Made by a program: the position numbers and the translations under genes
Shown: one piece after another, positions 206 to 29,142 of the stretch
Numbering within the stretch: position 1 is the stretch's first letter
Layout: every line of letters begins with the position of its first letter
Notes under the pieces: model-generated
Database searches by the model: none
Told to the model about the DNA's origin: nothing
What the model saw: the letters and a program-made list of their open reading frames with translations, nothing else
DNA from: Candidatus Vampirococcus lugosii
Lineage (GTDB): Bacteria; Patescibacteriota; Gracilibacteria; Absconditabacterales; Absconditicoccaceae
DNA: 29,990 nucleotides
Assembly (NCBI RefSeq): GCF_018420025.1
Contig: NZ_JAEDAM010000009.1
Location: 1 to 29,990 of the forward strand
Direction: 5' to 3'

Positions 206-2287
206 ATGATAGAAAAATATGAAATACCAACACCAGATTATATAAATATTATAAGTAAAGAGCTTAATTTAGAAAATTGACAAGTCCAAACTGTGATTGA
301 GCTTACATCTCAATGAGCAACAGTTCCATTTATTTCTCGTTATAGGAAGGAACAAACTTGAAATTTAGATGAAAATCAAATAAGATCTATTTTGGAAATT
401 CAAAAATTTCAAGAAAATATAAATAAAACAAAACAAACTGCAATAAATTGAATTGCTGAACAAAATAAATTAACTGAAGAGCTTTTATCAAATATACTTG
501 CTTGCAAAACTTTGAAAGAAGTAGAAGAAATATATAAACCTTATAAATCAAAAAGAAAAACAAAAGCTATGATTGCAATAGAAAAATGATTTCAAATAGT
601 GGCAGACAATATTAAATTAAATAAATTAATAATACCAAATGAACTTTTGGAAAAATATAGTCAAGAAGAAATATTGGAATGAGCAGTACAAATAATATGA
701 GCAGAAATAACAGCAAATTTAAGTATTAGACATTTTGTTTTGGATGAATTAAAAAAATATTGAATTATAAAATCTAATAAAAAGTCTGATAAAATGCTTG
801 AAAAACTTAATGAAAAAAATAAAAAACAAATATATAAATTTGAAATATATTTTGAATTTGAAACAAAAATAAAAGATATAAAAGCTTATCAAGTATTGGC
901 ACTAAATAGATGAGAAAAATTATGAATTTTGAATGTTAAAGTAATTAAAGATATTGTAATTCAAGAAAAAACTTTTTCATATTATTTAGATATTTTATGA
1001 TTAAAAGAAAATAAAATAAATGAATTTTTGGAATGATTTAAAATATGATTTGATTCATTATATTCATCTATTGATAGTCAGATAAGAAGTGAATTGAATG
1101 AATTTGCAGAAAATGAATCAATACAAACTTTTCAAAATAATCTTTCCAATTTACTTATGACAAAACCACAGTATTGACAAAAAATATTAGCTATTGATCC
1201 TTGATTTAAAGCAGGTTGTAAAATTGTTTTATTAGATGAATTATGAAATCCATTAAAATTTGATAAAATTTTCTTAAATCAAACAGAATCCTCAAAAGAT
1301 AAAATTAAAAATTTAGTAGAAGAGTTTTGAATAGATGTAATTGTAATATGAAATTGAACATGAACACAAGAAATACAACAAATAGTTTCTGAAATTTTTG
1401 ATAAAGAAATTTATATAGTAAATGAATCTTGAGCATCAGTTTATTCTGTGTCAGATATAGCTATAGAAGAATTTCCCGATTTAAATGATTTGGATAGATG
1501 AACAATTTCTATAGCTAGAAGATATATAGATCCACTTTCTGAGTTGGTAAAAGTTCCAGTATGAAGTATATGAGTTTGACTTTATCAACATGATTTAGCC
1601 AAAAAAAAACTTGAAGAAAAACTTTGATATGTAGTAGAAGATAGTGTAAATAAAGTATGAATAAATGTAAATACAGCAAGTATTTATTTATTAAATCATA
1701 TATCATGAATTGACAAAAAACAAGCAAAAAAAATATATAAAAATAGACCTTATAAAAATAGAAAAAATTTGGAAAAAATATTGTCATCAAAAGTTTATGA
1801 ACAAGCAATATGATTTTTGAGAGTCCCTAAAAGTGATGAAGAACTTGATCAAACTGATATACATCCTGAACAATATGAACTTGCAAAATATATTATCAAA
1901 AATAATAAAAATAAACTTGATGAAAAAATGAAAGAAATATATCCAAGTGTAAATCAAATAACTATTGATTTTATATTAAATTCTTACAAAAATATTGCCA
2001 AAGATCCTAGAGAAAATTTTGCACATACCAAAATAAATAAATCAATAAATATAGATGAATTAAAAGAATGAGATATTTTGGAATGATTGGTAAGAAATGT
2101 AGTTGCTTTTGGTGCTTTTGTTGATATTTGATTAAAAAATGATTGATTAGTACATATATCACATCTATCAAATGAATTTGTAAAAGATCCTATGGATATA
2201 GTAAAAGTATGAGATAAAGTTAAAGTTAAAGTTATAAAAATTGATTTGGAATCTTGAAAAATTAATTTAAGTATGAAAGACTTATAA
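206..2287 (+). CDS. tex: Tex-like transcription accessory protein (Tex N-terminal, YqgF-like, HhH and S1 domains)
   Basis: 693 aa with TGA=Gly, ends TAA. Motifs: GATVPFISRYRKEQTGNLDE near the N-terminus; YqgF-like AIDPGFKAGCKIVLLD and IVIGNGTGTQE; SIGVGLYQHD; C-terminal S1 domain [29 protein letters not shown]. Standard-code fragment 1817..2071 is in the same frame (start mod 3 = 2). Confidence 0.9.
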
Positions 2288-2354
2288 TTTTTTATATATT
2301 AAATTACTTCTCTTTATTATCTTTCAAAAGTTTTTTTCAAAAAAATACAATTTT

Positions 2355-2405
2355 AAATATAATAAGAATTTTTACAATATCCAAAATATAATAAGAATTT
2401 TACAA
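2355..2405. repeat. Two tandem direct copies of AAATATAATAAGAATTTT(T)ACAA in a 389-nt intergenic spacer
   Basis: Copy 1 is 2355-2377 and copy 2 is 2384-2405. They are identical except for one extra T, with a 6-nt gap between them. Confidence 0.6.
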
Positions 2406-2489
2406 ATTTAAGTTTATTATTTCTTTTATTAATATTTTGATATAAAAAATTTATAATATAATTTTTAATAATATTAGCAAAGATAGAAT

Positions 2490-2515
2490 CTTATAATTTT
2501 ATTATAAGTTTTTTT
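2490..2515 (+). terminator. Hairpin plus T-tract (terminator-like) in the middle of the tex-downstream spacer
   Basis: CTTATAAT (2490-2497), loop TTT, ATTATAAG (2501-2508), then TTTTTTT. The 8-bp stem has only one G:C pair, so it is weak. Confidence 0.3.
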
Positions 2516-2676
2516 ATTAATCTATGGAGTGCATAAATTGTATTTTTTTTGAAAGATATTTAATATTTAAATTTTCAATTTTTGATTGATTAATTAATAT
2601 TAAGTTTTTTATATTTGACATAAAAAAAAATGAATATATAATAATATATTATTTTATATTAAAAATAAAAATAAAA

Positions 2677-3777
2677 ATGATTTCATATAAAGAAATAAAT
2701 TATATAATTGATTTATTTAGAGAAGTTGAAAGTTCAATATCAGAAATTGATTTTTTTGATTGTAAATCAAATAATAATTTTTTATATAGTTTTTTGTATA
2801 TTATAAATTTTAGACAATTTATTATAAATAAAATTTATGAAAATAAAAATATGAGATTTTATTTAAATGTTTTTAATTTTCAAAAAAATTTTAATAGTTT
2901 AGACGATATTGAAAATATTATTAAAAATAACAATATATTTGAAATTGATTTTGATAAAAATAATTTACATAAAATATATTCAAAAAATTTAGTAACTATA
3001 AGTTTTTTTATTAGATATTTAGAAAATAATAATATATTAAACTTAAATAATTTATTTTTAAAAAAACTATCTTTTTATGAATTTGAAAAATTTAAAAAAA
3101 ATAAAATAATAAATTATAAAAATCCTATATATGATTTTTATAAAAATAAATTTCTATGGAAAAATAATTTTGATAAATTTTTTGATGAAAAATATGAAGA
3201 AGTAAAAATTGAATATAAAGATAAACTTAAAAATAAAAAAGATATATGATATACTGAATATAAATTGATGCGACTTTATAATTATAATATACTTTATAAA
3301 TCTTATCAAAGTATAAATAATTTTAATTTTATAAAATATTTTATAGCAAAATATATATTTGATATATGAAATTATTTTAAATATAATTCAAATCAAATTA
3401 AATTTTTGTATTTATTTCATTTTTGTAAAAATTATGAACAATATAAAAAATTTCATAGTTTGTTTTATAAAAAAATCTCTCAAAAAAAAATTGATTTATA
3501 TCTAATTTGATTTTTTTCTTTTGTGTGAATATTTACTGCTTATTTTATAAATTTTAATATTTGATTTTTTGTTTTCTTAATAATTTTTGTTGTAATAATT
3601 ATAGGAATATATTCATATAAAAGAAATTTTTTATCAATTTTGCCTACAATAAGAGCTATTTGTTTATGATGAATATTAATTTCTGTAATTTATTTTTGAT
3701 ACGAAATAAATATAAATTTTAGTAAAGATAGTTTATTAAATATGACTGTAAATATATTGTCTTGAAAAAATAAATAA
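2677..3777 (+). CDS. Hypothetical membrane protein: Asn/Lys/Phe-rich N-terminal half, C-terminal transmembrane helices
   Basis: 366 aa. Standard-code ORF 2677..3249 continues in frame through several TGA codons to TAA at 3775. Hydrophobic helices include GFFSFVGIFTAYFINFNIGFFVFLIIFVVIIIGIY and AICLGGILISVIYFGY. No family recognised. In-frame CGA at 3271. Confidence 0.6.
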
Positions 3778-3920
3778 TTTTTTGCTTACAAAGATGAGTT
3801 TAATATTGTTGACACAATAAAAAAAGCTTGATCTTGTATTTTTTAAAAAAATCATTATAATGAAATTTATAATTTATTTTTTGTAATTATTTTTTTATAA
3901 CTAAATATTCATAATATATA

Positions 3921-4496
3921 ATGAATGAGAATTTTAATAAAAAAATATTCATAATATCAGGTCCTTCTGGTGTATGAAAAACTACTATTTGAAATTATGT
4001 AATAGATGCAGATGATCTTGATTTTGAAAAAATTATTACTACTACAACTAGGGAGCCAAGAGCAGATGAATTTTATTGAATACATTATTATTTTGTTGAT
4101 GATGAAAAATTTAAAAGACAGATTGAAGCTTGAAAATTTATTGAATATGCATTAGTTCATTGAAAATATTATGGTTCTACATATGAAGAATTAGATAGAA
4201 TTTTTTCAGATTGAAAAATTCCTTTTTATATAGTAGATCATCAATGAGCAGTTTTTCTAAAAGAAAAATTATCAAAAGAATATATTGTAAAATTGATTTT
4301 ATTAGTTCCACCAAATGAAGATGAATTAATAAATAGATTAAAACAAAGATGAACTGAATCTGAAGAGGAAATAAAAATAAGATTACAAGATTCTAAAAAA
4401 CAATTACAATACAAGGATGTTTATGATTATCAAATTGTCAATAATGATTTGGAAGATGCTATTGAAAAATTTATTAAAATAATTAATAATGATTAG
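3921..4496 (+). CDS. gmk: Guanylate kinase
   Basis: 191 aa. P-loop GPSGVGKTT, whose second Gly is TGA at 3975-3977. Also TTTTREPRADEFYGIHYYF, GKFIEYALVHGKYYGST and RGTESEEEIKIRL. 8 of 11 Gly codons are TGA. Ends TAG. Confidence 0.92.
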
Positions 4497-8609: not shown

Positions 8610-10253
8610 ATGACAATAGATAATTTTTCAGAAAATACTAGAAAAGCGGATGAATTTTTGGATAATTTGGAAACAGAAACTAAAGATTCTATAAGTGAAT
8701 CATTAAAGGTTGAAACAGAACATGCAATACCAGATATTGATTATGAAATAGAATTATATAAAAATGCATATAAAAAATTATCAGAGATGGAACAGAAATT
8801 TTGAGAAGCATTATGAGACTATTCTTTTGATCATTATGATTGAGAATTAGATACTAAATATAGTTATACTGAATTTGAAAAACTTGCAAGAGGTTTAAGA
8901 CAAGAATTAATAGATTTACAAAATACTAAAGAAGATATAGGTTTTCTTGAATATAAAGCTTCTGTAATATGAAGAAAAACATGATTGTATAAAAATCCTT
9001 TAAATTTTGATTATCTTTTATCAGAAAAACTTGGTAAAGAAACTAAACAAGAAAAACTATTTAATAAGATGGTTGATAAGTTGTTAGATGTTGAACGAGA
9101 AGTAAAAAACCATATAGTTAAAAGTTTAGAAACAGATTGAAAGTTGCCTGAAAGAGAAACAAAAATTAATTCGGATATTGAAAATTTAGAGTTTGAGACA
9201 GATTTATGAAGAATAAAATTTTCAGAAATTGAAGATTATGAACCTGAAACAACTACAGAAAAAATTGATTTATGGCGAAGTCAAAGAGAATATTTTGAAT
9301 GACCTGATTTAGTTATTGATTTGGGGCTTGATAAAGATGAAAATGAATCTAATATTGATGCAACAGATATTAATGAATTTACTGATTTACTTGTAAACTT
9401 ATTGGAAGAGAATCCAAATGTTTTGAAAGAGCTTGAAATACAAGATATTTATAATTTGTCTCCAAAAGAAGCTATTTTACTTTCATCAAAAATAGTTAAA
9501 GATAAATTAGAATTTTCTCTAACTAAAAGTTCTATTGATAAAAATGTAAATAATGATTGATTATTAAGACAATTTATTTGACTAATTAATACAGATTGGA
9601 TAAGTGATTATAAATTAAATGAAAGTGTTCTATCAAAATTACCACAAGAAATGCAAGATGAAATTAGAGAAAATCCTAAAGAAGCATACAAAAAATATTC
9701 TTCTGAGATAGATCAAGTATCTATGAACGAACTTTTTGAATCAAATAGTGAAGTAAGTTCCAAAAATTATTCACAAGCTGTAAAATTAGTTTTTGATATA
9801 CTTAAAGAAATGCAAGATCCAGATACAACACAATTGAAAAATACTTACTGTAAACAACATACAATAGATCTTTGAGAATTTGATGATTCAGAAATTGTTA
9901 GTAGTAGTTGGAATACTTTTTATACAATATCACCACATTATAGAAGTAATGTTGATGTAGTAATAATTGATGCAGCACATGCAGATTCTTGATTAGAACT
10001 TGATTGAAAAATTTCTTATTCTGAAGATAAATTTTTATTTAATTTAATTAATTTGGAAAAACAAGGTCTAATTTCAAAAGAAGAAAAAATTTATCAATTG
10101 GAATATTGGGCAAAATATAATGAAAATCGACAAACTCCTTTATACAAAAGTGTTTGTTCTTATATCGCAAATTATTATAAAGAAATATGAGAAACATATA
10201 AATATTTGAAATGGATGTGATATACAGATACTGAAAAAGAATATAATATATAA
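8610..10253 (+). CDS. Hypothetical large acidic protein (orphan)
   Basis: 547 aa. Standard-code fragments 8577, 9321 and 9651 are all in frame 0 and are joined only by TGA codons. Checked codon by codon with no TAA or TAG until 10251. Contains three in-frame CGA codons (9096, 9276, 10128). Confidence 0.7.
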
Positions 10254-11694: not shown

Positions 11695-13059
11695 ATGTTT
11701 TTTAGTAAAAAATATATTTTATATCTTCGTTTATTGAGACCTATTTTTCATATACTTTTGATACTTTTATCGTTTTGGATAGTTTATAATATTAGATTTT
11801 ATGATTTTGTAGAAAATATTTTTCTTGATTTGCCAGATATTATATTTAATGAAACTTTAATATTTACATTAATTTCATCTTTTTTATTTATTTTAATTTG
11901 ATTTTTATTTTCTATTTATGAAATATTTAAACCTATACATTGATATTATAAAGAATTTTTAAAAATTCGATTTTTTTGGATGATTATAATATCTTTTATA
12001 GCTTATTTGTGACAATGATTTATTTTTCCTAACGGTATTTCTAGATTTATACTTTTAATTGGATGATTTTTTTCATTATTATTTATTACTATTTTTGATA
12101 TATTATTAAATAATATTAATTCTTATTTGGAAAGAAAAAATCCTTATAAACTTTTATTTATATATTCTACAGAAAGTTTTTATAAAAAAATATTTAATAG
12201 TTTTAGTGATTACAAAATTTATGATATTACTTGAATTTATGTAGATGATTTATTAGATTTAAATAAAGAAATTAAAAAATATGATATATTTGTTACTGTA
12301 GGTAATTTTGATAAAAATTTTTTACAAAATTTAATGGATATAATAAGACTTTATAATAAACAATTTTATCATATATCAGAAAATTTTTTCTTGGAAGATT
12401 TAGTATATTCATCTTCTAGAATTGGTCCAGTTTTGGCATATGAACAAAAACCTTCTCCATTGGATTGATGGTTCAAAGTAACTAAAAGAATTACAGATAT
12501 ATTATTTTCTATATTGTTTATAACAATTTTTTCTTGGCTTTATATATTAATATCAATTTTTATCTTTATTAAAGATTGAAGACCTATTTTTTATAAATCC
12601 GAAAGAATAGCTAGATGATGAAGAAAATTTTTTATGTATAAGTTTAGAACTATGATAAAAGATGCTGATAAACAAAAACAAAAATTAATAAAACAAAACG
12701 AAAGAAAATGACCATTATTTAAAATAAGTAATGATCCTAGAATTCCTAAATGGTGAAAAATATTGAGAAAAACTTCTTTAGACGAAATACCACAATTTCT
12801 TAATGTAATAAAATGAGATATGTCAGTAGTAGGACCTAGACCTCATTTGGATTTTGAAGTTGAAAAATATGAAAAATGGCAAAAAAGACTTTTGAGTGTT
12901 AAACCTTGAATTACTTGATATGCTCAAATATTTGGAAGAGATAATTTAGATTTTGACGAAGAAGCGAAATTAGATCTTTATTATATTCAAAATTGGTCAT
13001 TATTTTTGGATGTTTTTGTTATTATTAGCACTATTAAAGTTGTTTTTTCTGGTAGGTAA
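11695..13059 (+). CDS. Polyprenyl-phosphate sugar phosphotransferase (WbaP/Bac_transf family)
   Basis: 454 aa. Four N-terminal TM helices, a central soluble region and a fifth TM. C-terminal catalytic domain [103 protein letters not shown], and KPGITGYAQI. In-frame CGA at 11968. Confidence 0.88.
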
Positions 13060-16470: not shown

Positions 16471-18222
16471 ATGTTAAAATTAGATTTATCTGAAAAATAT
16501 TTTACAAGTCATGACAATAAAGATATCTATTACAAATCTTGGACAAATAATGAAAATAAAAAAGCTATAATATTGATACATAGAGGACATGAACATTCTT
16601 GAAGAATAGCACATTTGGTAGATGAGTTAAATACAAAAGATACAAATTTTTTTGCATGGGATGCTAGATGAAACTGAAAAACTGAATGAAAAAGATGATA
16701 CAGTCCAGATTTTTCTTATTTAGTAAAAGATTTAGATTATTTTGTAAAACATATTACAAAAGAATATTGAATTGAAGAAAAGAATATAATATTGATAGCA
16801 CAAAGTGTTTGAGCTGTAGTAGCTTCTACTTGGTTGCATGATTATGCACCCAAAATAAAATGTGCAGTATTGGCATCTCCTGCTTTCAATGTAAACCTAA
16901 TAATTCCATGACTTAAACATATTCTTAAATTATGGCAAAAAATAAGATGAAATTATACTGTAAAATCTTATGTAAAATGAAAAGATTTAACTCATGATAT
17001 AGAAAGAAGTAAATCTTATGATACTGATCCTTTAATATCTTTAGATATTTCATCAAATATTTTATTGGAATTATATGAAAATTCTGATAGGGTAATAAAA
17101 GATGCATCGGCTATAAATATTCCAGTACTTTTATTAACTTCATGAGATGATAAAGTAGTTTTTAAGAAAGAACAAAAAATATTTTTTGATAATTTATCGT
17201 CCTCAAATAAAGAACATCATATATTAGAATGATTTTATCATGATACATTATGAGAAAAAGATAGACATATTGCTATGAAATTAATAGAAGATTTTATTGA
17301 AAAATTAGAATCTTGAGATAATGAAAATAATAATATAAATTTATTTGATTCATACAAAAAATGATATACTTATGATGAATTTATAAAATTATCAAAACCT
17401 TTAAATAAATTTTCATTAAAAAATATTAATTTTGCTACAACAAAATTTTTTATGAGAACATTATGAAAATCTTTATCAAAAGGTATAAACATAGCAGAAA
17501 AAACATGATATGATTCCTGATCTACACTTGATTATGTATACAAAAATCAAGCAGAATGAAAACTTTTTATATGAAAAATATTAGATAAATCATATTTAAA
17601 TAGTATTTGATGGAAATGAATTAGAAAAAGAAGGGAAAATTTGGAAAAAGCTATAAATATAGTAATTAATAAATTAGAAGAAAATAAAAAATCTATTAAA
17701 ATAATGGATATAGCAGCATGACATTGAAGATATATATTAAATTCTATTTTGCCATATAAAGATACAATAAATTCTGTTATACTTAGAGATTATAGTGATA
17801 TAAATGTTGAATGATGAAAAAAATTAATACAAGAGAAAAGTTTAGAAAATATAGTTAATTTCAAAAAAGCAGATGCATTTGATAAAAAAAGTATATCTGA
17901 TGAAAAAAATATAACTCTATGAATTGTTTCCTGATTATATGAATTATTTACAGATAATAATATGATAAATTCATCTTTGGAATGATTGTATAATGCAATA
18001 GAAAAAGATTGATATTTAATATATACAAATCAACCTTGGCATCCACAAATTGAATTTATTGCTAGAGTTTTAACAAGTCATAGACAATCTCAAAATTGGG
18101 TTATGAGAAGAAGAACACAAGCTGAAATGGATAGTTTAGTTGAAAATGTATGATTCAAAAAAATTGATCAATTTATTGATAAATGGTGAATTTTTACAGT
18201 TTCTATCGCAAAAAAAATATAA
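16471..18222 (+). CDS. Bifunctional alpha/beta hydrolase (lysophospholipase/monoacylglycerol-lipase-like) / class I SAM-dependent methyltransferase fusion
   Basis: 583 aa, checked codon by codon. Hydrolase half: ILIHRGHEHSGR (HG oxyanion region), nucleophile elbow IAQSVGAVVA, TSGDDKVV, GFYHDTL (Ser-Asp-His triad). Methyltransferase half: motif I IMDIAAGHGRY, followed by LGIVSGLYELF and GYLIYTNQPWHPQ. Confidence 0.8.
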
Positions 18223-19463: not shown

Positions 19464-19580
19464 TTTGATACTATAAATTTAAAGATATAAAATGTTAATA
19501 TAAATAATTAAATTCATTTGATTTTAGATAAAAATTGATTATATTATTTAATAATATTTTATTAAATAATTAATTTTTAT

Positions 19581-21260
19581 ATGAAAAAATTATCATCAGA
19601 AGATTTGAGAAATATTTGGAAAAATTTTTGGGAAAATTGAGAAAAAGATCATAAATATCTTAAATATTCATCATTAATACCAGATAGTAAAGATAAAACA
19701 GTTCTTTTCAATACTGCTTGAATGCAACAGCTTGTATCATATTTGCTTGGTAAACCTCATCCTTTATGAAATAGGCTTTATAATATTCAAAAAAGTTTGA
19801 GAACTTGAGATATAGATGAAGTAGGAGACGAAAGACATCTTACATTTTTTGAAATGTTTGGAAATTGGTCTTTATGAGATTTTTTTAAAAAAGAATCTTT
19901 GACTTGGTCTGTAGAATTTTTAAATAAAGAAATTTGAATTTCTATAGAAAAAATTTGAGCAACAATTTTTGCTTGAGATGAAACTTTATGAATATGAGAA
20001 GATATAGAAGCTAGAAAAATTCTTAATGAAATATGAATTCCTAATTCAAGAATTAAAGCAATATGAATGGAAGATAATTTCCGAGGACCAGCAGGGGAGT
20101 TGGGACCTTGTTGACCTTGTTCAGAATTTTTTGTTGATAGAGGTGAAGAATGGTGAAAAAATAATTGGGATATGTGAGAAAATGATAGATTTATAGAAGT
20201 TTGGAATAATGTTTTTATGGAGTTTTACAAAAATGAAGATTGAACTTTTTCAAAATTAAAACAAAAAAATGTAGATACAGGTATGTGACTTGAAAGACTT
20301 GCTATGATTTTACAAAATAAACAAACAGTTTTTGAAACTGATTTATTTGAATTTATTATGATAAGTTTACAAAATTTTGTTTGAAAAAAATATGCACCGT
20401 TCCAAAAACATGAAAATGAGTTTGATCAACAAGAAAAAAATGATACAAGGCATTTCAGAATAATAGCAGATCATATAAGAACAGCTATTTTTATGATTTG
20501 AGATTGAGTAATTGCTAGTAATGATGGTAGATGATATGTACTTAGAAGACTTATCAGAAGATTTTATTATTCTCTTATTTCTCTCAATGAAAATATTAAA
20601 TTAGATGATTTTATTAATGATTTGGTAAATAAAGTAAACCAAAAATATTGAACTTATTATATAGAAATTTCAAATGGTGTAAATAATATTATTTCATCTA
20701 TATTAAACGAAATTTATCAATTTCAAAAAACAATTAATAATTGAATAAGAGAATTTGAAAAAATAGTAAAAGAAATAAAAAATTCTGATAATCCAAATAG
20801 GAATTATTTGACATGAGAAGAGGCATTCAAATTATATGATACTTATTGATTACCAGTAGATATGATAGAAGAACTTGCTTTCCAAACTTGATTTTCAGAA
20901 AAGTGATTAAATCCTGTTTCTTTTATTGAATTTGAAAAAGCTATGGAAAAAGCAAGAGAAAAATCTCGTAAATCTTCAAAAGATATGTTCAAAAGATGAA
21001 TTGATTGGGCAAAATATTTGGATTGAATTAGTCCTACAGAATTTGTTTGATATGAAAATTTGGAATTGGAATGAATAAAAATTTTGAAAGATTTTGAAGT
21101 AAACTGACAAAGAGTTATTATTTTTGATAAAACTCCTTTTTATGCAGAATCTGGAGGTCAAACTTCTGATATTGGAATTTTGGAATTTGATGATAATAAT
21201 GTATTAAATATTTATGAAGTTCAAAATTATTCTGGTGTATTTTTACATTTTATTAAATAA
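19581..21260 (+). CDS. alaS: Alanine--tRNA ligase, catalytic and tRNA-recognition domains only (no editing or C-Ala domain)
   Basis: 559 aa. VLFNTAGMQQ; HLTFFEMFGNWSLGDFFK; EDNF-[CGA][91 protein letters not shown]. Ends TAA at 21258, just inside the beta-barrel and before any HxxxH/CxxxH editing motifs. Confidence 0.9.
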
Positions 21261-21385: not shown

Positions 21386-23518
21386 ATGAGAAATAATAAA
21401 TGATTTAGTATGATAGAAACTGTGGTGTCAATATGAGTAATTGCTATATTGGCAATAATTGCAGGATTAAGTATTACTATTTGGGTAAGTAAAGCAAGAG
21501 ATGCAGAAGTGGTAAATAATGTAACGACTATAGCATGATGACTTGAAAGTTATCATGTAACAAATTTTGAGTATCCAGAACCAGATGGAAATATTTTAAC
21601 ATGAAATTTGGAGCAGTGAATAATGTGAACTTGAGTTATTGAAGAATTATCAAGTTTTGTAAATGTAAAAAATTTATCAAATTCTAATAAATATATTTAT
21701 AGTACTTATCAAATTTATGATCATTATCAAGTAGTATGATTATTGGAAAATGATGTTCAAATACAGGCATATGATTATATGATAGATAAGGCATATGCAA
21801 ATACAGATGCAACTATAAAACTATGAAATAAAGGATACTATTCAAAATGAACTATTGGAATGCATTTAATAGCAAATCAAGATAATACTTTGGTGCTTGA
21901 ATGAAATGATTTAAAATCAAGTTATAAATTGATAAGTAATATTTGAAATGAAGATATTGTTTTAAATAATTTAGATGATGTTAAAAAAATTTCAGAAACT
22001 ATTGTTAAAAATTGATGATCTTGATGAGATTGATGAAATTCGGATTTGTTATGAACTATTGAATGTAGTGATAAAACAGTTTGAACTACATTTGAAATAT
22101 TTTGAGATACATATTATGTAGCAAGTGATAAAAAAGATATTCAAGATAATATTGATGGAGAAATAGATGGAAGTAATTTTATATGAGATTATCCAGCTAA
22201 TAGAATATGTACAAGTAATGTTACTGATATGAGTAGTTTATTTAATTGAGAAGAAAATTTCAATCAAAATATATCAAATTGGGATACAAGTCAGGTTACT
22301 ACTATGAGACAAATGTTTTGGAATGCAAGTTCATTTAATCAAGATATAGCAAATTGGGATACAAGTAATGTTACTAATATGAAACAAATGTTTTTTAATG
22401 CAAGTTTATTTAATCAAGATATAAGTACTTGGGATACAAGTAATGTTACTACTATGAAAGAAATGTTTTGGAATGCAAGTTTATTTAATAAAGATATATG
22501 AGATTGGGATATAAGTCAGGTTGATACTATGAATATGGAATGAATGTTTAGATGAGCAAGTTCATTTAATCAAGATATAGGTGATTGGGATACGAGTAAT
22601 GTTACTACTATGAGATCGATGTTTTGGAATGCAAGTTCATTTAATCAAGATATAGGTGATTGGGATACAAGTAATGTTACCACTATGAGATCAATGTTTA
22701 GATGAGCAAGTTTATTTAATCAAGATATAGGAAATTGGGATACAAGTAATGTTGATACTATGAGTTATATGTTTAAAGATGCAAGTTTATTTAATCAAGA
22801 TATATCAACTAAAAAAGTAAATGAATGAAGTGATGATGAATATATAGCTTGGGATACGAGTAATGTTACTACTATGAGATCGATGTTTAATTGAGCAAGT
22901 GTATTTAATCAAGATATATGAAGTTGGAATACAAGTAATGTTACTAACATGGAAGATATGTTTTATTGAGCAAGTTCATTTAATCAAAATATATGAAATT
23001 GGGATACAAGTAAGGTTGCTACTATGAATAGAAATAGAGATGGTTGAATGTTTAGATGAGCAAGTTCATTTAATAATGGATGTGATGAATGAGATCTTGG
23101 TTGTGATTTAAATAATTGGGATACAAGTAATATTACTACTATGAGAGAAATGTTTAGATGAGCAAGTTCATTTAATCAAGATATAGGTGATTGGAATACA
23201 AGTTATGTTAAAGATATGACACATATGTTTAACTGAGCAGATAGTTTTAATCAAGATATAGGTGATTGGAATACAAGTAATGTTACTAATATGAGTTATA
23301 TGCTTAAAGCAGAAAATTTTAATAATTGATGTGATAAATGAGTTTCAGGTTGTCCTTTAGGTTGGGATACAAGTAATGTTACTAGTATGTTTCAAATGTT
23401 TAATGATGCAGAAAGTTTTAATCAAGATCTATCATGATGGTCTGTTAGTAGTGTAACAGATAATCGGGCATTTGATGATTGAGCCAATGCACGAACAGAA
23501 CCAAAACCACAATGGTAA
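21386..23518 (+). CDS. Type IV prepilin-like protein fused to a DUF285 / BspA-type leucine-rich repeat domain
   Basis: 710 aa. Class III signal MRNNKG|[22 protein letters not shown] with the -1 Gly encoded by TGA (21401-21403), Glu at +5 and a hydrophobic pilin helix. Then a ~230-aa unique region and ~15 repeats of consensus [11 protein letters not shown].MF.[10 protein letters not shown] (DUF285 signature). Standard-code fragment 22304..22501 is in frame. Confidence 0.85.
22208..23470 (+). repeat. Coding tandem repeat array, 75-nt (25-aa) unit with occasional insertions, about 15 units
   Basis: The Trp codons of successive WDTS motifs at 22280, 22355 and 22430 are exactly 75 nt apart. Neighbouring units (for example from 22583 and from 22658) differ at roughly ten of 75 positions by hand comparison. 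Confidence 0.85.
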
Positions 23519-27677: not shown

Positions 27678-28133
27678 ATGGAAATTAATCTTTATGATTG
27701 AGAAAAATTTGAGAGAACAAAAGTTCGGTATATTAGTTTTGTTACATTATATGTATTTTTTATACTAATTTCGTTATTATCTTGAAATATAACTTGAGTA
27801 ATACTACTTTTTTTGTTTCTTGGTTGATATATGTTCTTTAATTTACTTTGAAAAAATAATATAAAAGCAAAAATTTTTGATGAATGATTAAAAATTTGAA
27901 ATAAATTTATTGCTTGGAGTAATGTGCATTGATTTGTACTTGAACTTGATGACAATACAAATCTTATTAAAAATATTGTATTTTTGGTAAATAATACTAA
28001 ACTTGTACATACTCTAAATGATGATAATGAAAAAATAAAAGAATTTATTTTAAATCTTAATGATAAATGTGAAATGTTATCTTATTATGATCAAACTTTT
28101 GTGGATAAAATTATAAGAAAATTAAAAATTTAA
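27678..28133 (+). CDS. Hypothetical membrane protein (two TM helices plus a soluble C-terminal domain)
   Basis: 151 aa. YISFVTLYVFFILISLLSGNITGVILLFLFLGGYMFF. In-frame CGG at 27726. No family recognised. Confidence 0.5.
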
Positions 28134-28533: not shown

Positions 28534-29142
28534 ATGGAATTTAAACTTGTTGATTTGGAATATTGATATGATGAATTTGAGCCGTATATAGATAAAGAAA
28601 CTATGAAAATACATCATAGTAAACATCATCAAACATATGTGGATAAATTAAATAATTCTATAAAATGAACTGATGCAGAATGAAAAAGTTTAGAAGAAAT
28701 ATTTGAAAATATGTCAGATTTTTCTGATGCAATAAGAAATAATTGAGGTTGAGTTTATAATCATAATATTTATTGGTCAAGTATTTCTCCAAATTGATGA
28801 TGAGAACCTAAATGAAAACTTTTTGAAGATATAGTTAATACTTTTGGAAGTTTTGATTTATTTAAAAGTGAAATGGAAAATGCTTGATTATCTCAATTTG
28901 GATCAGGTTGGGCTTGGTTGATAGTTGATAAAGACTGAAATCTTAAAATAACTAAAACACAAAATCAAGATAATCCACTTATGAATATTTTGAGTTCGGA
29001 TAATAGATGAAAACCATTATTTTGTATTGATGTTCGGGAACATGCTTATTATTTGAAATATAACAATAGAAGAAATGATTATTTAAGTAATATATGGAAT
29101 ATTATAAATTGGGATAAAATAAGTGATGATTATAATAATTAA
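28534..29142 (+). CDS. sodA: Fe/Mn-family superoxide dismutase
   Basis: 202 aa. [29 protein letters not shown]; [11 protein letters not shown]; FGSGWAWL; DV-[CGG][15 protein letters not shown]. All four metal-ligand positions are present (H in KIHHSKHH, H in YNHN, D and H in DVxEH). Confidence 0.9.

What the first reader, a model, noticed from the sequence alone, without database searches (positions are those of the whole stretch)
20082..20084. In-frame CGA sits on the invariant Trp of the AlaRS 'DNFW' motif
The alaS model reads ...[25 protein letters not shown]. In bacterial AlaRS this block is ..DNFW.[12 protein letters not shown].., and the residue after DNF is a strongly conserved tryptophan. 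The surrounding alignment is unambiguous: GPCGPCSE follows directly and [13 protein letters not shown] lies about 30 residues downstream. Read as standard Arg, this codon would put a charged residue in a conserved aromatic position of an essential enzyme. Read as Trp, it restores the consensus. Conserved arginines in the same gene use AGA (ADHIRT, RRLIRR).
Basis: partly seen in the sequence, partly recalled or inferred. Interest (0 to 1): 0.85.

Follow-up and report, generated by a model that had tools for sequence, protein, structure and literature searches.

The report
Known CGA-to-tryptophan recoding in Absconditabacteria

Summary
CGA at 20082-20084 is in frame in the alaS gene (19581-21260, +), read with UGA = Gly. 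It occupies the Trp of the DNFW motif, which corresponds to E. coli AlaRS W170.

All 74 standard-code AlaRS orthologs I recovered have TGG in that column. Fourteen distinct Absconditabacteria genes have CGA (6), CGG (2) or TGG (6), and never an AGA, AGG or CGT Arg codon.

Across these genes, CGA/CGG occupy Trp-conserved columns 20 times and Arg-conserved columns 0 times. AGA, AGG and CGT occupy Arg columns 119 times and Trp columns 0 times (Fisher p = 1.4e-24).

The window holds a second case. CGG at 29035-29037 sits on the Trp of D-V-W-E-H-A-Y-Y in the Fe/Mn superoxide dismutase.

The organism is a 20% GC relative of Candidatus Absconditicoccus praedator, whose AlaRS is 70% identical and carries CGA at the same site.

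It is the CGA/CGG-to-Trp reassignment of Absconditabacteria reported by Shulgina and Eddy (eLife 2021) and recovered again in a 2026 preprint.

I found no tRNA gene, so the decoding tRNA is taken from the literature. Nothing I read in the literature reports an experimental test of the reassignment.

The parts
20082..20084 (+). The in-frame CGA codon, codon 168 of alaS counted from the ATG at 19581. It lies on the Trp of the DNFW motif.
   Evidence: sequence. (PDB AlaRS have W here). (74 of 74 standard-code orthologs TGG; Absconditabacteria CGA 6, CGG 2, TGG 6).
19581..21260 (+). alaS, a short 559-aa alanyl-tRNA synthetase made of the catalytic and tRNA-recognition part only. It is intact when UGA is read as Gly.
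   Evidence: ORF. (E = 1.6e-76 to Aquifex AlaRS). (its database entry P0001 and all listed close relatives hit PF01411 only; the nearest named relative is Ca. Absconditicoccus praedator at 70% identity).
29035..29037 (+). An in-frame CGG codon on the Trp of the D-V-W-E-H-A-Y-Y motif of Fe/Mn superoxide dismutase. This is a second case of the same recoding in the window.
   Evidence: codon and context. (the three PDB SODs shown read IDVWEHAYYL; E = 2.8e-68).
28534..29142 (+). Fe/Mn superoxide dismutase gene (202 aa).
23465..23467 (+). CGG in the C-terminal tail of the DUF285 protein. The position is not conserved, so the meaning cannot be tested here.
23492..23494 (+). CGA in the C-terminal tail of the DUF285 protein. 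Not testable here.
9096..9098 (+). CGA in a lineage-specific protein (8610-10253). The only distant homolog has Glu here. Uninformative.
9276..9278 (+). CGA in the same protein. The distant homolog has Lys here, in a poorly conserved stretch.
10128..10130 (+). CGA in the same protein. The distant homolog has Lys here, next to a gap.
3271..3273 (+). CGA in a hypothetical AT-rich membrane protein. Not tested.
11968..11970 (+). CGA in the unconserved N-terminal membrane part of a bacterial sugar transferase (context KI[CGA]FFWMII). Not tested.
27726..27728 (+). CGG near the N-terminus of a small membrane protein that matches no family. Not tested.

Best explanation
The window comes from a very AT-rich (about 20% GC) member of the order Absconditabacterales (candidate division SR1), related to Candidatus Absconditicoccus praedator. 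In this lineage UGA is read as glycine, and the two arginine codons CGA and CGG are read as tryptophan. CGU, AGA and AGG still mean arginine.

The CGA at 20082 therefore encodes the conserved active-site Trp of AlaRS, and the enzyme is normal.

Shown here:
- CGA/CGG behave as synonyms of TGG in alignments, never as synonyms of AGA, AGG or CGT.
- They are rare codons in a genome where AGA carries almost all arginine.

Inferred from the literature, not shown here:
- Decoding is done by tRNA(UCG) and tRNA(CCG) genes that carry tryptophan rather than arginine identity elements (G73, no A20).
- A tRNA(GCG) keeps CGU and CGC as Arg.
- AT mutation pressure made CGA/CGG nearly extinct, which allowed their capture.
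For: 1. Focal column: 74 of 74 standard-code AlaRS orthologs have TGG. Fourteen distinct Absconditabacteria genes have CGA 6, CGG 2, TGG 6.

2. Five Trp-conserved AlaRS columns in those 14 genes: TGG 36, CGA 18, CGG 2. Arg-conserved columns: AGA 90, AGG 27, CGT 2, CGA 0, CGG 0. Fisher p = 1.4e-24.

3. In a nine-gene codon alignment of this clade, CGA/CGG share most of their columns with TGG or Phe/Tyr codons and never with AGA, AGG or CGT. The column profile of CGA (W 16, Y 4, F 3, C 1) mirrors that of TGG (W 27, Y 9, F 9, C 8).

4. Second gene in the window: CGG on the Trp of DVWEHAYY in SOD.

5. CGT and AGG in the window fall in motifs I recognise as conserved Arg: Tex SRYRKE, DnaB SQLSR, Gmk TTTREPR (conservation from my own knowledge of these families). 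The alaS CGT at 20967 lies on a column that is 88% Arg.

6. Codon counts over 8,550 codons: CGA 7, CGG 3, CGT 6, CGC 0, AGA 178, AGG 12, TGG 72, TGA 396. TGA falls on Gly columns 159 of 184 times.

7. Taxonomy: the best named AlaRS hit is Ca. Absconditicoccus praedator at 70% identity, and it has CGA at the same site.

8. Published: Codetta infers UGA = Gly and CGA = Trp for the Absconditabacterales rows I read, with CGG called Trp, undetermined or (one genome) Arg. tRNA(UCG), tRNA(CCG) and tRNA(GCG) are present in most of them and tRNA(ACG) is absent (PMC8629427). A 2026 preprint re-found the reassignment, and NAR 2026 treats it as established.
Against: No tRNA gene lies in the window or in about 200 kb of related Absconditabacteria DNA that I fetched. 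The decoding tRNA was therefore not examined for this organism.

Eight of the ten CGA/CGG codons in the window lie at unconserved positions and say nothing either way. For the three CGA codons in ORF 8610-10253, the only distant homolog (30% identity) has Glu, Lys and Lys. That is slightly more Arg-like than Trp-like, but it is weak evidence in poorly aligned stretches.

All the evidence is comparative. Neither these tools nor the papers I read provide peptide-level proof, and Shulgina and Eddy state that only experiment can exclude ambiguous decoding.
Confidence: 0.93

Rival explanations
1. CGA keeps its standard meaning, and this lineage's AlaRS tolerates arginine in place of the DNFW tryptophan.
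For: Public annotation, including NCBI's table-25 translation of the Ca. A. praedator protein, shows R here. In one lineage-specific protein, two of three CGA codons face Lys in a distant homolog.
Against: The column is TGG in 74 of 74 standard-code orthologs. Within the clade the site alternates among TGG, CGG and CGA but never uses AGA, which carries about 90% of arginine. CGA/CGG occupy 0 Arg-conserved and 20 Trp-conserved AlaRS positions. The same pattern appears between what I recall as the two metal-ligand residues of SOD. A review lists the equivalent E. coli residue W170 among the conserved substrate-binding residues of AlaRS.
Confidence: 0.02
2. Position 20082 is a sequencing or assembly miscall of TGA or TGG.
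For: None found. CGA differs from TGA by one base, and from TGG by two.
Against: Logan assemblies from two runs (SRR13241708, SRR13241709) match the window at 99.9-100% over about 25 kb, and the SRR13241708 contig L022 covers this codon. The complete genome of Ca. A. praedator and six other lineages have CGA or CGG at the homologous codon.
Confidence: 0.005
3. Decoding is ambiguous or transitional. CGA/CGG are read partly as Trp and partly as Arg, for example through competing tRNAs or a tRNA charged by both synthetases. Essential sites yield enough functional protein, and tolerant sites still carry old Arg-type CGA codons.
For: The codons are still rare: 10 against 72 TGG. The published work calls this an early-stage reassignment and does not exclude ambiguity. 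Glu, Lys and Lys face the CGA codons in the one distant homolog of ORF 8610-10253. In the published table Codetta calls CGG undetermined in several Absconditabacterales genomes and Arg in one.
Against: No CGA/CGG falls on any conserved Arg column in 14 AlaRS genes. Placing an ambiguous codon on what appear to be active-site residues of AlaRS and SOD in many lineages would be costly.
Confidence: 0.04
4. C-to-U editing of the mRNA restores a tryptophan codon.
For: Editing CGG to UGG would give Trp.
Against: Editing CGA gives UGA, which is Gly in this organism, yet CGA is the codon most often found on Trp columns (18 of 20). I know of no reported mRNA editing of this kind in these bacteria (own knowledge).
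Confidence: 0.005

Closest known systems
CGA and CGG to Trp reassignment in Absconditabacteria / order Absconditabacterales (Shulgina and Eddy 2021, eLife 10:e71402, PMC8629427)
   Same: Same clade and same codons. The signature matches: CGR on conserved Trp columns of single-copy genes, CGU and AGR remaining Arg, low GC, AGA-dominated arginine usage, rare CGA/CGG, and UGA = Gly. Window frequencies of about 8 CGA and 3.5 CGG per 10,000 codons lie inside the published ranges of under 37 and under 7.
   Different: This genome is more AT-rich (0.20 GC) than the reassigned clades described there (0.26-0.38). It belongs to the Absconditicoccus lineage, which was cultured after that study (own knowledge). 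The tRNA component was not observed here.
CGG to Trp in Anaerococcus and in RFN20 Bacilli (same paper; also NAR 2026, PMC13092985)
   Same: An arginine CGN codon captured by tryptophan in low-GC bacteria. The new anticodon is one base away from CCA.
   Different: In those lineages only CGG changes. tRNA(UCG) is absent, and CGA stays Arg through tRNA(ICG). Here both CGA and CGG change, consistent with the loss of tRNA(ACG) across the Candidate Phyla Radiation.
Genetic code 25: UGA to Gly in SR1/Absconditabacteria and Gracilibacteria (Campbell 2013; Rinke 2013, as cited)
   Same: The window uses it heavily. TGA accounts for 396 of 478 Gly codons.
   Different: Table 25 as implemented in public databases does not include the CGA/CGG change. 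Deposited proteins therefore show Arg at these sites.
Unassigned CGG in Mycoplasma capricolum (Oba 1991, as cited)
   Same: AT pressure drives a CGN codon to near extinction.
   Different: In that case the codon is unassigned. Here it is used in what should be indispensable genes and has acquired a new meaning.

Membership tests
Absconditabacterales CGA/CGG-to-Trp genetic code variant | The organism belongs to Absconditabacterales and reads UGA as Gly. | tested here: met
   Genes are intact only when TGA is read as sense. TGA lies on Gly columns 159 of 184 times. The nearest named relative is Ca. Absconditicoccus praedator.
Absconditabacterales CGA/CGG-to-Trp genetic code variant | CGA and CGG codons align with conserved Trp columns and not with Arg columns. 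| tested here: met
   AlaRS: 20 CGR on Trp columns and 0 on Arg columns, p = 1.4e-24. SOD: CGG on DVWEHAYY.
Absconditabacterales CGA/CGG-to-Trp genetic code variant | CGU/CGC and AGA/AGG keep the Arg meaning. | tested here: met
   At conserved columns, CGT falls on R 10 and K 3, AGA on R 102 of 122, and AGG on R 27 of 29.
Absconditabacterales CGA/CGG-to-Trp genetic code variant | Low GC, rare CGA/CGG, and AGA as the dominant Arg codon. | tested here: met
   GC is about 0.20. Counts: CGA 7, CGG 3, AGA 178 in 8,550 codons.
Absconditabacterales CGA/CGG-to-Trp genetic code variant | tRNA(UCG) and/or tRNA(CCG) with Trp identity (G73, no A20), tRNA(GCG)-Arg present, and tRNA(ACG) absent. | not testable with these tools
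   No tRNA gene lies in the window or in the related Absconditabacteria loci. The only evidence is published presence/absence tables.
Absconditabacterales CGA/CGG-to-Trp genetic code variant | Trp is actually incorporated at CGA/CGG in the protein. | not testable with these tools
   This needs proteomics. The authors of the original report say experimental confirmation is lacking.
Class II alanyl-tRNA synthetase (AlaRS) | Catalytic domain PF01411 carrying residues equivalent to the E. coli pocket residues listed in a review (M43, R69, W170, N212, D235, G237). | tested here: met
   PF01411 is the recorded Pfam hit of this protein's database entry P0001. E = 1.6e-76 to Aquifex AlaRS. Window residues M48, R74, CGA168, N209 and D232 are invariant in the clade alignment, and G234 follows in the DTGMG motif. 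Their spacing matches the E. coli list given; the E. coli numbering map is from my own knowledge.
Class II alanyl-tRNA synthetase (AlaRS) | Canonical bacterial architecture with the editing domain (tRNA_SAD, PF07973) and the C-Ala domain. | tested here: not met
   The gene ends after 559 aa. Absconditabacteria homologs are mostly 524-602 aa with PF01411 only. The full-length hits of about 860-880 aa, one of them labelled Gracilibacteria, carry PF07973.

The most novel reading that the evidence does not exclude
In this extremely AT-rich Absconditicoccus-like lineage, CGA/CGG may not be cleanly reassigned. They could instead be decoded ambiguously as Trp and Arg, or by a tRNA set different from the one published for other Absconditabacterales. 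CGA codons at tolerant sites, such as those facing Lys in ORF 8610-10253, would then be relics of the old meaning. That would make this lineage a living intermediate of a sense-to-sense codon reassignment.
Probability: 0.06. Interest if true: 0.6.

Novelty: already known. Interest (0 to 1): 0.22.

Why it matters
In practice, public protein databases translate these genomes with table 25, table 4 or table 11. They therefore show Arg at every CGA/CGG, including residues that appear to be catalytic in AlaRS and SOD, and Trp or a stop at UGA. This corrupts alignments, structure predictions and conservation scores for the whole clade.

Scientifically, sense-to-sense reassignments in bacteria are rare, and nothing I read reports an experimental test of this one. 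Cultured Ca. Absconditicoccus praedator carries CGA at this same AlaRS codon. The tryptic peptide spanning DNF-x-GPAG in that organism is therefore a concrete target for the first direct proof.

As a discovery, though, the finding adds only another lineage, and a more AT-rich one, to a published phenomenon.

Tried and rejected
1. Scan of GTDB genome contigs with the AlaRS protein. It returned only distant, mostly standard-code hits of 43% identity or less. These served as reference orthologs but gave no close relatives.

2. Metagenome scan with a clade alignment. Most of the 80 loci were standard-code bacteria; six were Absconditabacteria-like.

3. tRNA search with ARAGORN on the window and on all 111 loci. 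No tRNA gene turned up in any Absconditabacteria locus, so Trp identity of tRNA(UCG) or tRNA(CCG) could not be checked.

4. I suspected that L030, L031 and L090 (GC 0.40, no TGA in AlaRS) were a lineage with CGA = Trp but UGA = stop. I rejected this: a 1,587-codon ORF in L030 has 19 in-frame TGA, so they do use UGA as a sense codon, only rarely.

5. I first counted L022 as an independent lineage. It is the same organism as the window (100% DNA identity). The reported 94% protein identity is an artefact of TGA being translated as W in the database.

6. Homolog search for ORF 8610-10253, which has three CGA codons. It found only the same organism and one homolog at 30% identity, with Glu, Lys and Lys at those sites. 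Uninformative.

7. Homolog search for the C-terminal tail of the DUF285 protein, which has CGG and CGA. One hit with a different tail. Uninformative.

9. An Rfam scan of the window found nothing.

Full report
**What is at the site.** Bases 20082-20084 read CGA. They lie in frame in an ORF that is open from 19566 to 21260 only if TGA is read as a sense codon. From the ATG at 19581 it encodes a 559-aa protein. That protein matches solved alanyl-tRNA synthetases end to end over the catalytic and tRNA-recognition domains: Aquifex 1riq at E = 1.6e-76 and human 4xem at E = 6e-74. In both alignments the residue opposite the CGA is Trp, in EDNFW and KDNFW. The flanking blocks GPCGP(C/S)SE and E(V/I)WN.VFM leave no freedom in the alignment.

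**What organism this is.**
- The window has about 20% GC.
- In 8,550 ORF codons, TGA occurs 396 times, which is 83% of all Gly codons. AGA occurs 178 times, AGG 12, CGT 6, CGC 0, CGA 7, CGG 3 and TGG 72.
- The closest named AlaRS is that of Candidatus Absconditicoccus praedator at 70% identity. It belongs to the order Absconditabacterales.
- Contigs from Logan assemblies of SRR13241708 and SRR13241709 are 99.9-100% identical to the window over about 25 kb, and one covers the CGA. The base call is therefore reproducible.

**Test of the column.** I collected AlaRS genes as DNA from public genomes and metagenomes.
- The regex scan recovered the motif in 89 loci. The codon was TGG in 81, CGA in 6 and CGG in 2, and all 8 CGR cases sit in low-GC contigs that read TGA as sense.
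- With explicit grouping and the duplicate of the window removed, 74 of 74 standard-code orthologs have TGG. Fourteen distinct Absconditabacteria genes have CGA 6, CGG 2 and TGG 6.
- Ca. A. praedator has CGA, a sister lineage (L023) has CGG, and another (L024) has TGG. This is the pattern expected of synonymous drift among Trp codons.

**Generalising beyond one column.** I used the 74 standard-code orthologs to define conserved columns.
- In 12 code-25 AlaRS genes, one of which (L022) duplicates the window, CGA falls on W 16, Y 4, F 3, C 1 and R 0. CGG falls on W 2, Y 2 and R 0.
- CGT falls on R 10 and K 3. AGA falls on R 102 of 122, AGG on R 27 of 29, and TGA on G 159 of 184.
- The TGG profile in the same genes (W 27, Y 9, F 9, C 8) matches the CGA profile. 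CGA therefore behaves like TGG specifically, not like a generic aromatic codon.
- Restricting to the five columns with at least 85% Trp and to the columns with at least 85% Arg gives CGR 20 versus 0, and AGA/AGG/CGT 0 versus 119. Fisher p = 1.4e-24.
- In protein databases the same effect shows as R/W alternation. Of 121 close homologs, 44 have R and 77 have W at this position. The motifs NNRRSP (for DNWW) and FYRVG (for FYWVG) recur.

**A second case in the window.** CGG at 29035-29037 encodes residue 168 of a Fe/Mn superoxide dismutase (28534-29142). It lies in ...CIDV[CGG]EHAYYLKY. The three solved SODs displayed read IDVWEHAYYL. From established knowledge of Fe/Mn SOD, the Asp and His flanking this Trp are metal ligands.

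By contrast, CGT and AGG codons in the window sit in motifs that I recognise as conserved arginines: Tex SRYRKE, DnaB SQLSR and guanylate kinase TTTREPR (the conservation is from my own knowledge). The remaining eight CGA/CGG codons lie in unconserved positions. For three of them the only distant homolog shows Glu, Lys and Lys in poorly aligned stretches. I record this as weak, unresolved counter-evidence.

**Functional weight of the residue.** By spacing to the invariant Asn and Asp (window W168, N209, D232 and G234, against E. coli W170, N212, D235 and G237), the focal Trp corresponds to E. coli AlaRS W170. A review lists W170 among the conserved substrate-binding residues. The numbering map itself rests on my own knowledge of the E. 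coli sequence. An Arg at this position would be hard to reconcile with an enzyme the cell should not be able to do without.

**Mechanism.**
- Shown: CGA and CGG are synonyms of TGG in this clade.
- Taken from the literature: the Candidate Phyla Radiation lacks tRNA(ACG). CGU and CGC are read by tRNA(GCG)-Arg. CGA and CGG are read by tRNA(UCG) and tRNA(CCG), which Shulgina and Eddy describe for Absconditabacteria as consistent with the Trp reassignment, using G73 and no A20 as their Trp criteria. Low GC made the codons rare enough to be captured. Because tRNA(UCG) wobbles onto both codons, they changed together.
- Not verified here: no tRNA gene occurs in the window or in any related locus I could fetch.

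**Comparison with what is known.** This is the CGA/CGG-to-Trp reassignment of Absconditabacteria reported by Shulgina and Eddy in 2021 (PMC8629427). An independent k-mer method recovered it again in 2026, and an NAR 2026 paper takes it as given. All sequence-level defining features tested here are met. The tRNA feature and the protein-level feature could not be tested.

This window differs in two ways. Its GC of 0.20 is lower than the 0.26-0.38 of the reassigned clades described, and it belongs to the Absconditicoccus lineage.

**Verdict.** The phenomenon is already published, so novelty is low. Its residual value is twofold. It warns that deposited proteins of this clade carry Arg where the cell most likely inserts Trp. 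It also points to the AlaRS and SOD sites as good targets for the experimental confirmation that is still missing, especially since Ca. A. praedator shares the AlaRS CGA.

Noticed in passing
window 19581-21260; homologs: The AlaRS is a short form of 559 aa that ends just after the beta-barrel domain. It has no editing domain (PF07973) and no C-Ala domain. Most of the Absconditabacteria-type homologs listed are 524-602 aa with PF01411 only. Full-length homologs of about 860-880 aa, one of them labelled Gracilibacteria, keep the editing domain. The next gene is unrelated (a DUF285 protein). Whether a free-standing AlaX editing protein exists elsewhere in the genome is unknown.
   Followed up: partly
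whole window: TGA is by far the main glycine codon: 396 of 478 Gly codons, or about 4.6% of all codons. GGC and GGG are almost extinct, at 1 and 3 occurrences.
   Followed up: partly
P0001, P0121 and many hits; L022/L109/L110: Public protein collections hold this organism's proteins translated with TGA = Trp and CGA = Arg. DNA that is 100% identical therefore appears as 94-97% protein identity, and Gly columns show spurious W.
   Followed up: yes
L030 (ERZ773035 NODE-198), L031 (ERZ773070 NODE-449), L090: These belong to an Absconditabacteria-type lineage with GC about 0.40. Its 555-codon AlaRS has no TGA at all, which looks like a standard stop code. A 1,587-codon ORF with 19 in-frame TGA shows that UGA is still a sense codon, only rarely used. 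CGA in its AlaRS also sits on Trp or aromatic columns.
   Followed up: yes
window 21389-23518 (+): A 710-aa protein combines an N-terminal prepilin-type methylation motif (PF07963) with six stretches matching DUF285 (PF03382, E = 2.5e-151). It looks like a pilin-like leader fused to a surface-repeat protein.
   Followed up: no
window 16471-18222 (+): A single 583-aa protein fuses an S33-type alpha/beta hydrolase (PF12146) to a putative methyltransferase (PF12147, E = 1e-124).
   Followed up: no
window 9096, 9276, 10128 (ORF 8610-10253): Three of the window's seven CGA codons cluster in one lineage-specific, highly charged protein. The only distant homolog (P0122, 30% identity, GC 0.36 contig L111) has Glu, Lys and Lys at those positions. 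This is not what a Trp reading predicts, but the alignment there is poor.
   Followed up: partly
window 2001-4000: GC drops to 0.138 across a 417-aa hypothetical membrane protein (about 2524-3777). This is the most AT-rich stretch of the window.
   Followed up: no
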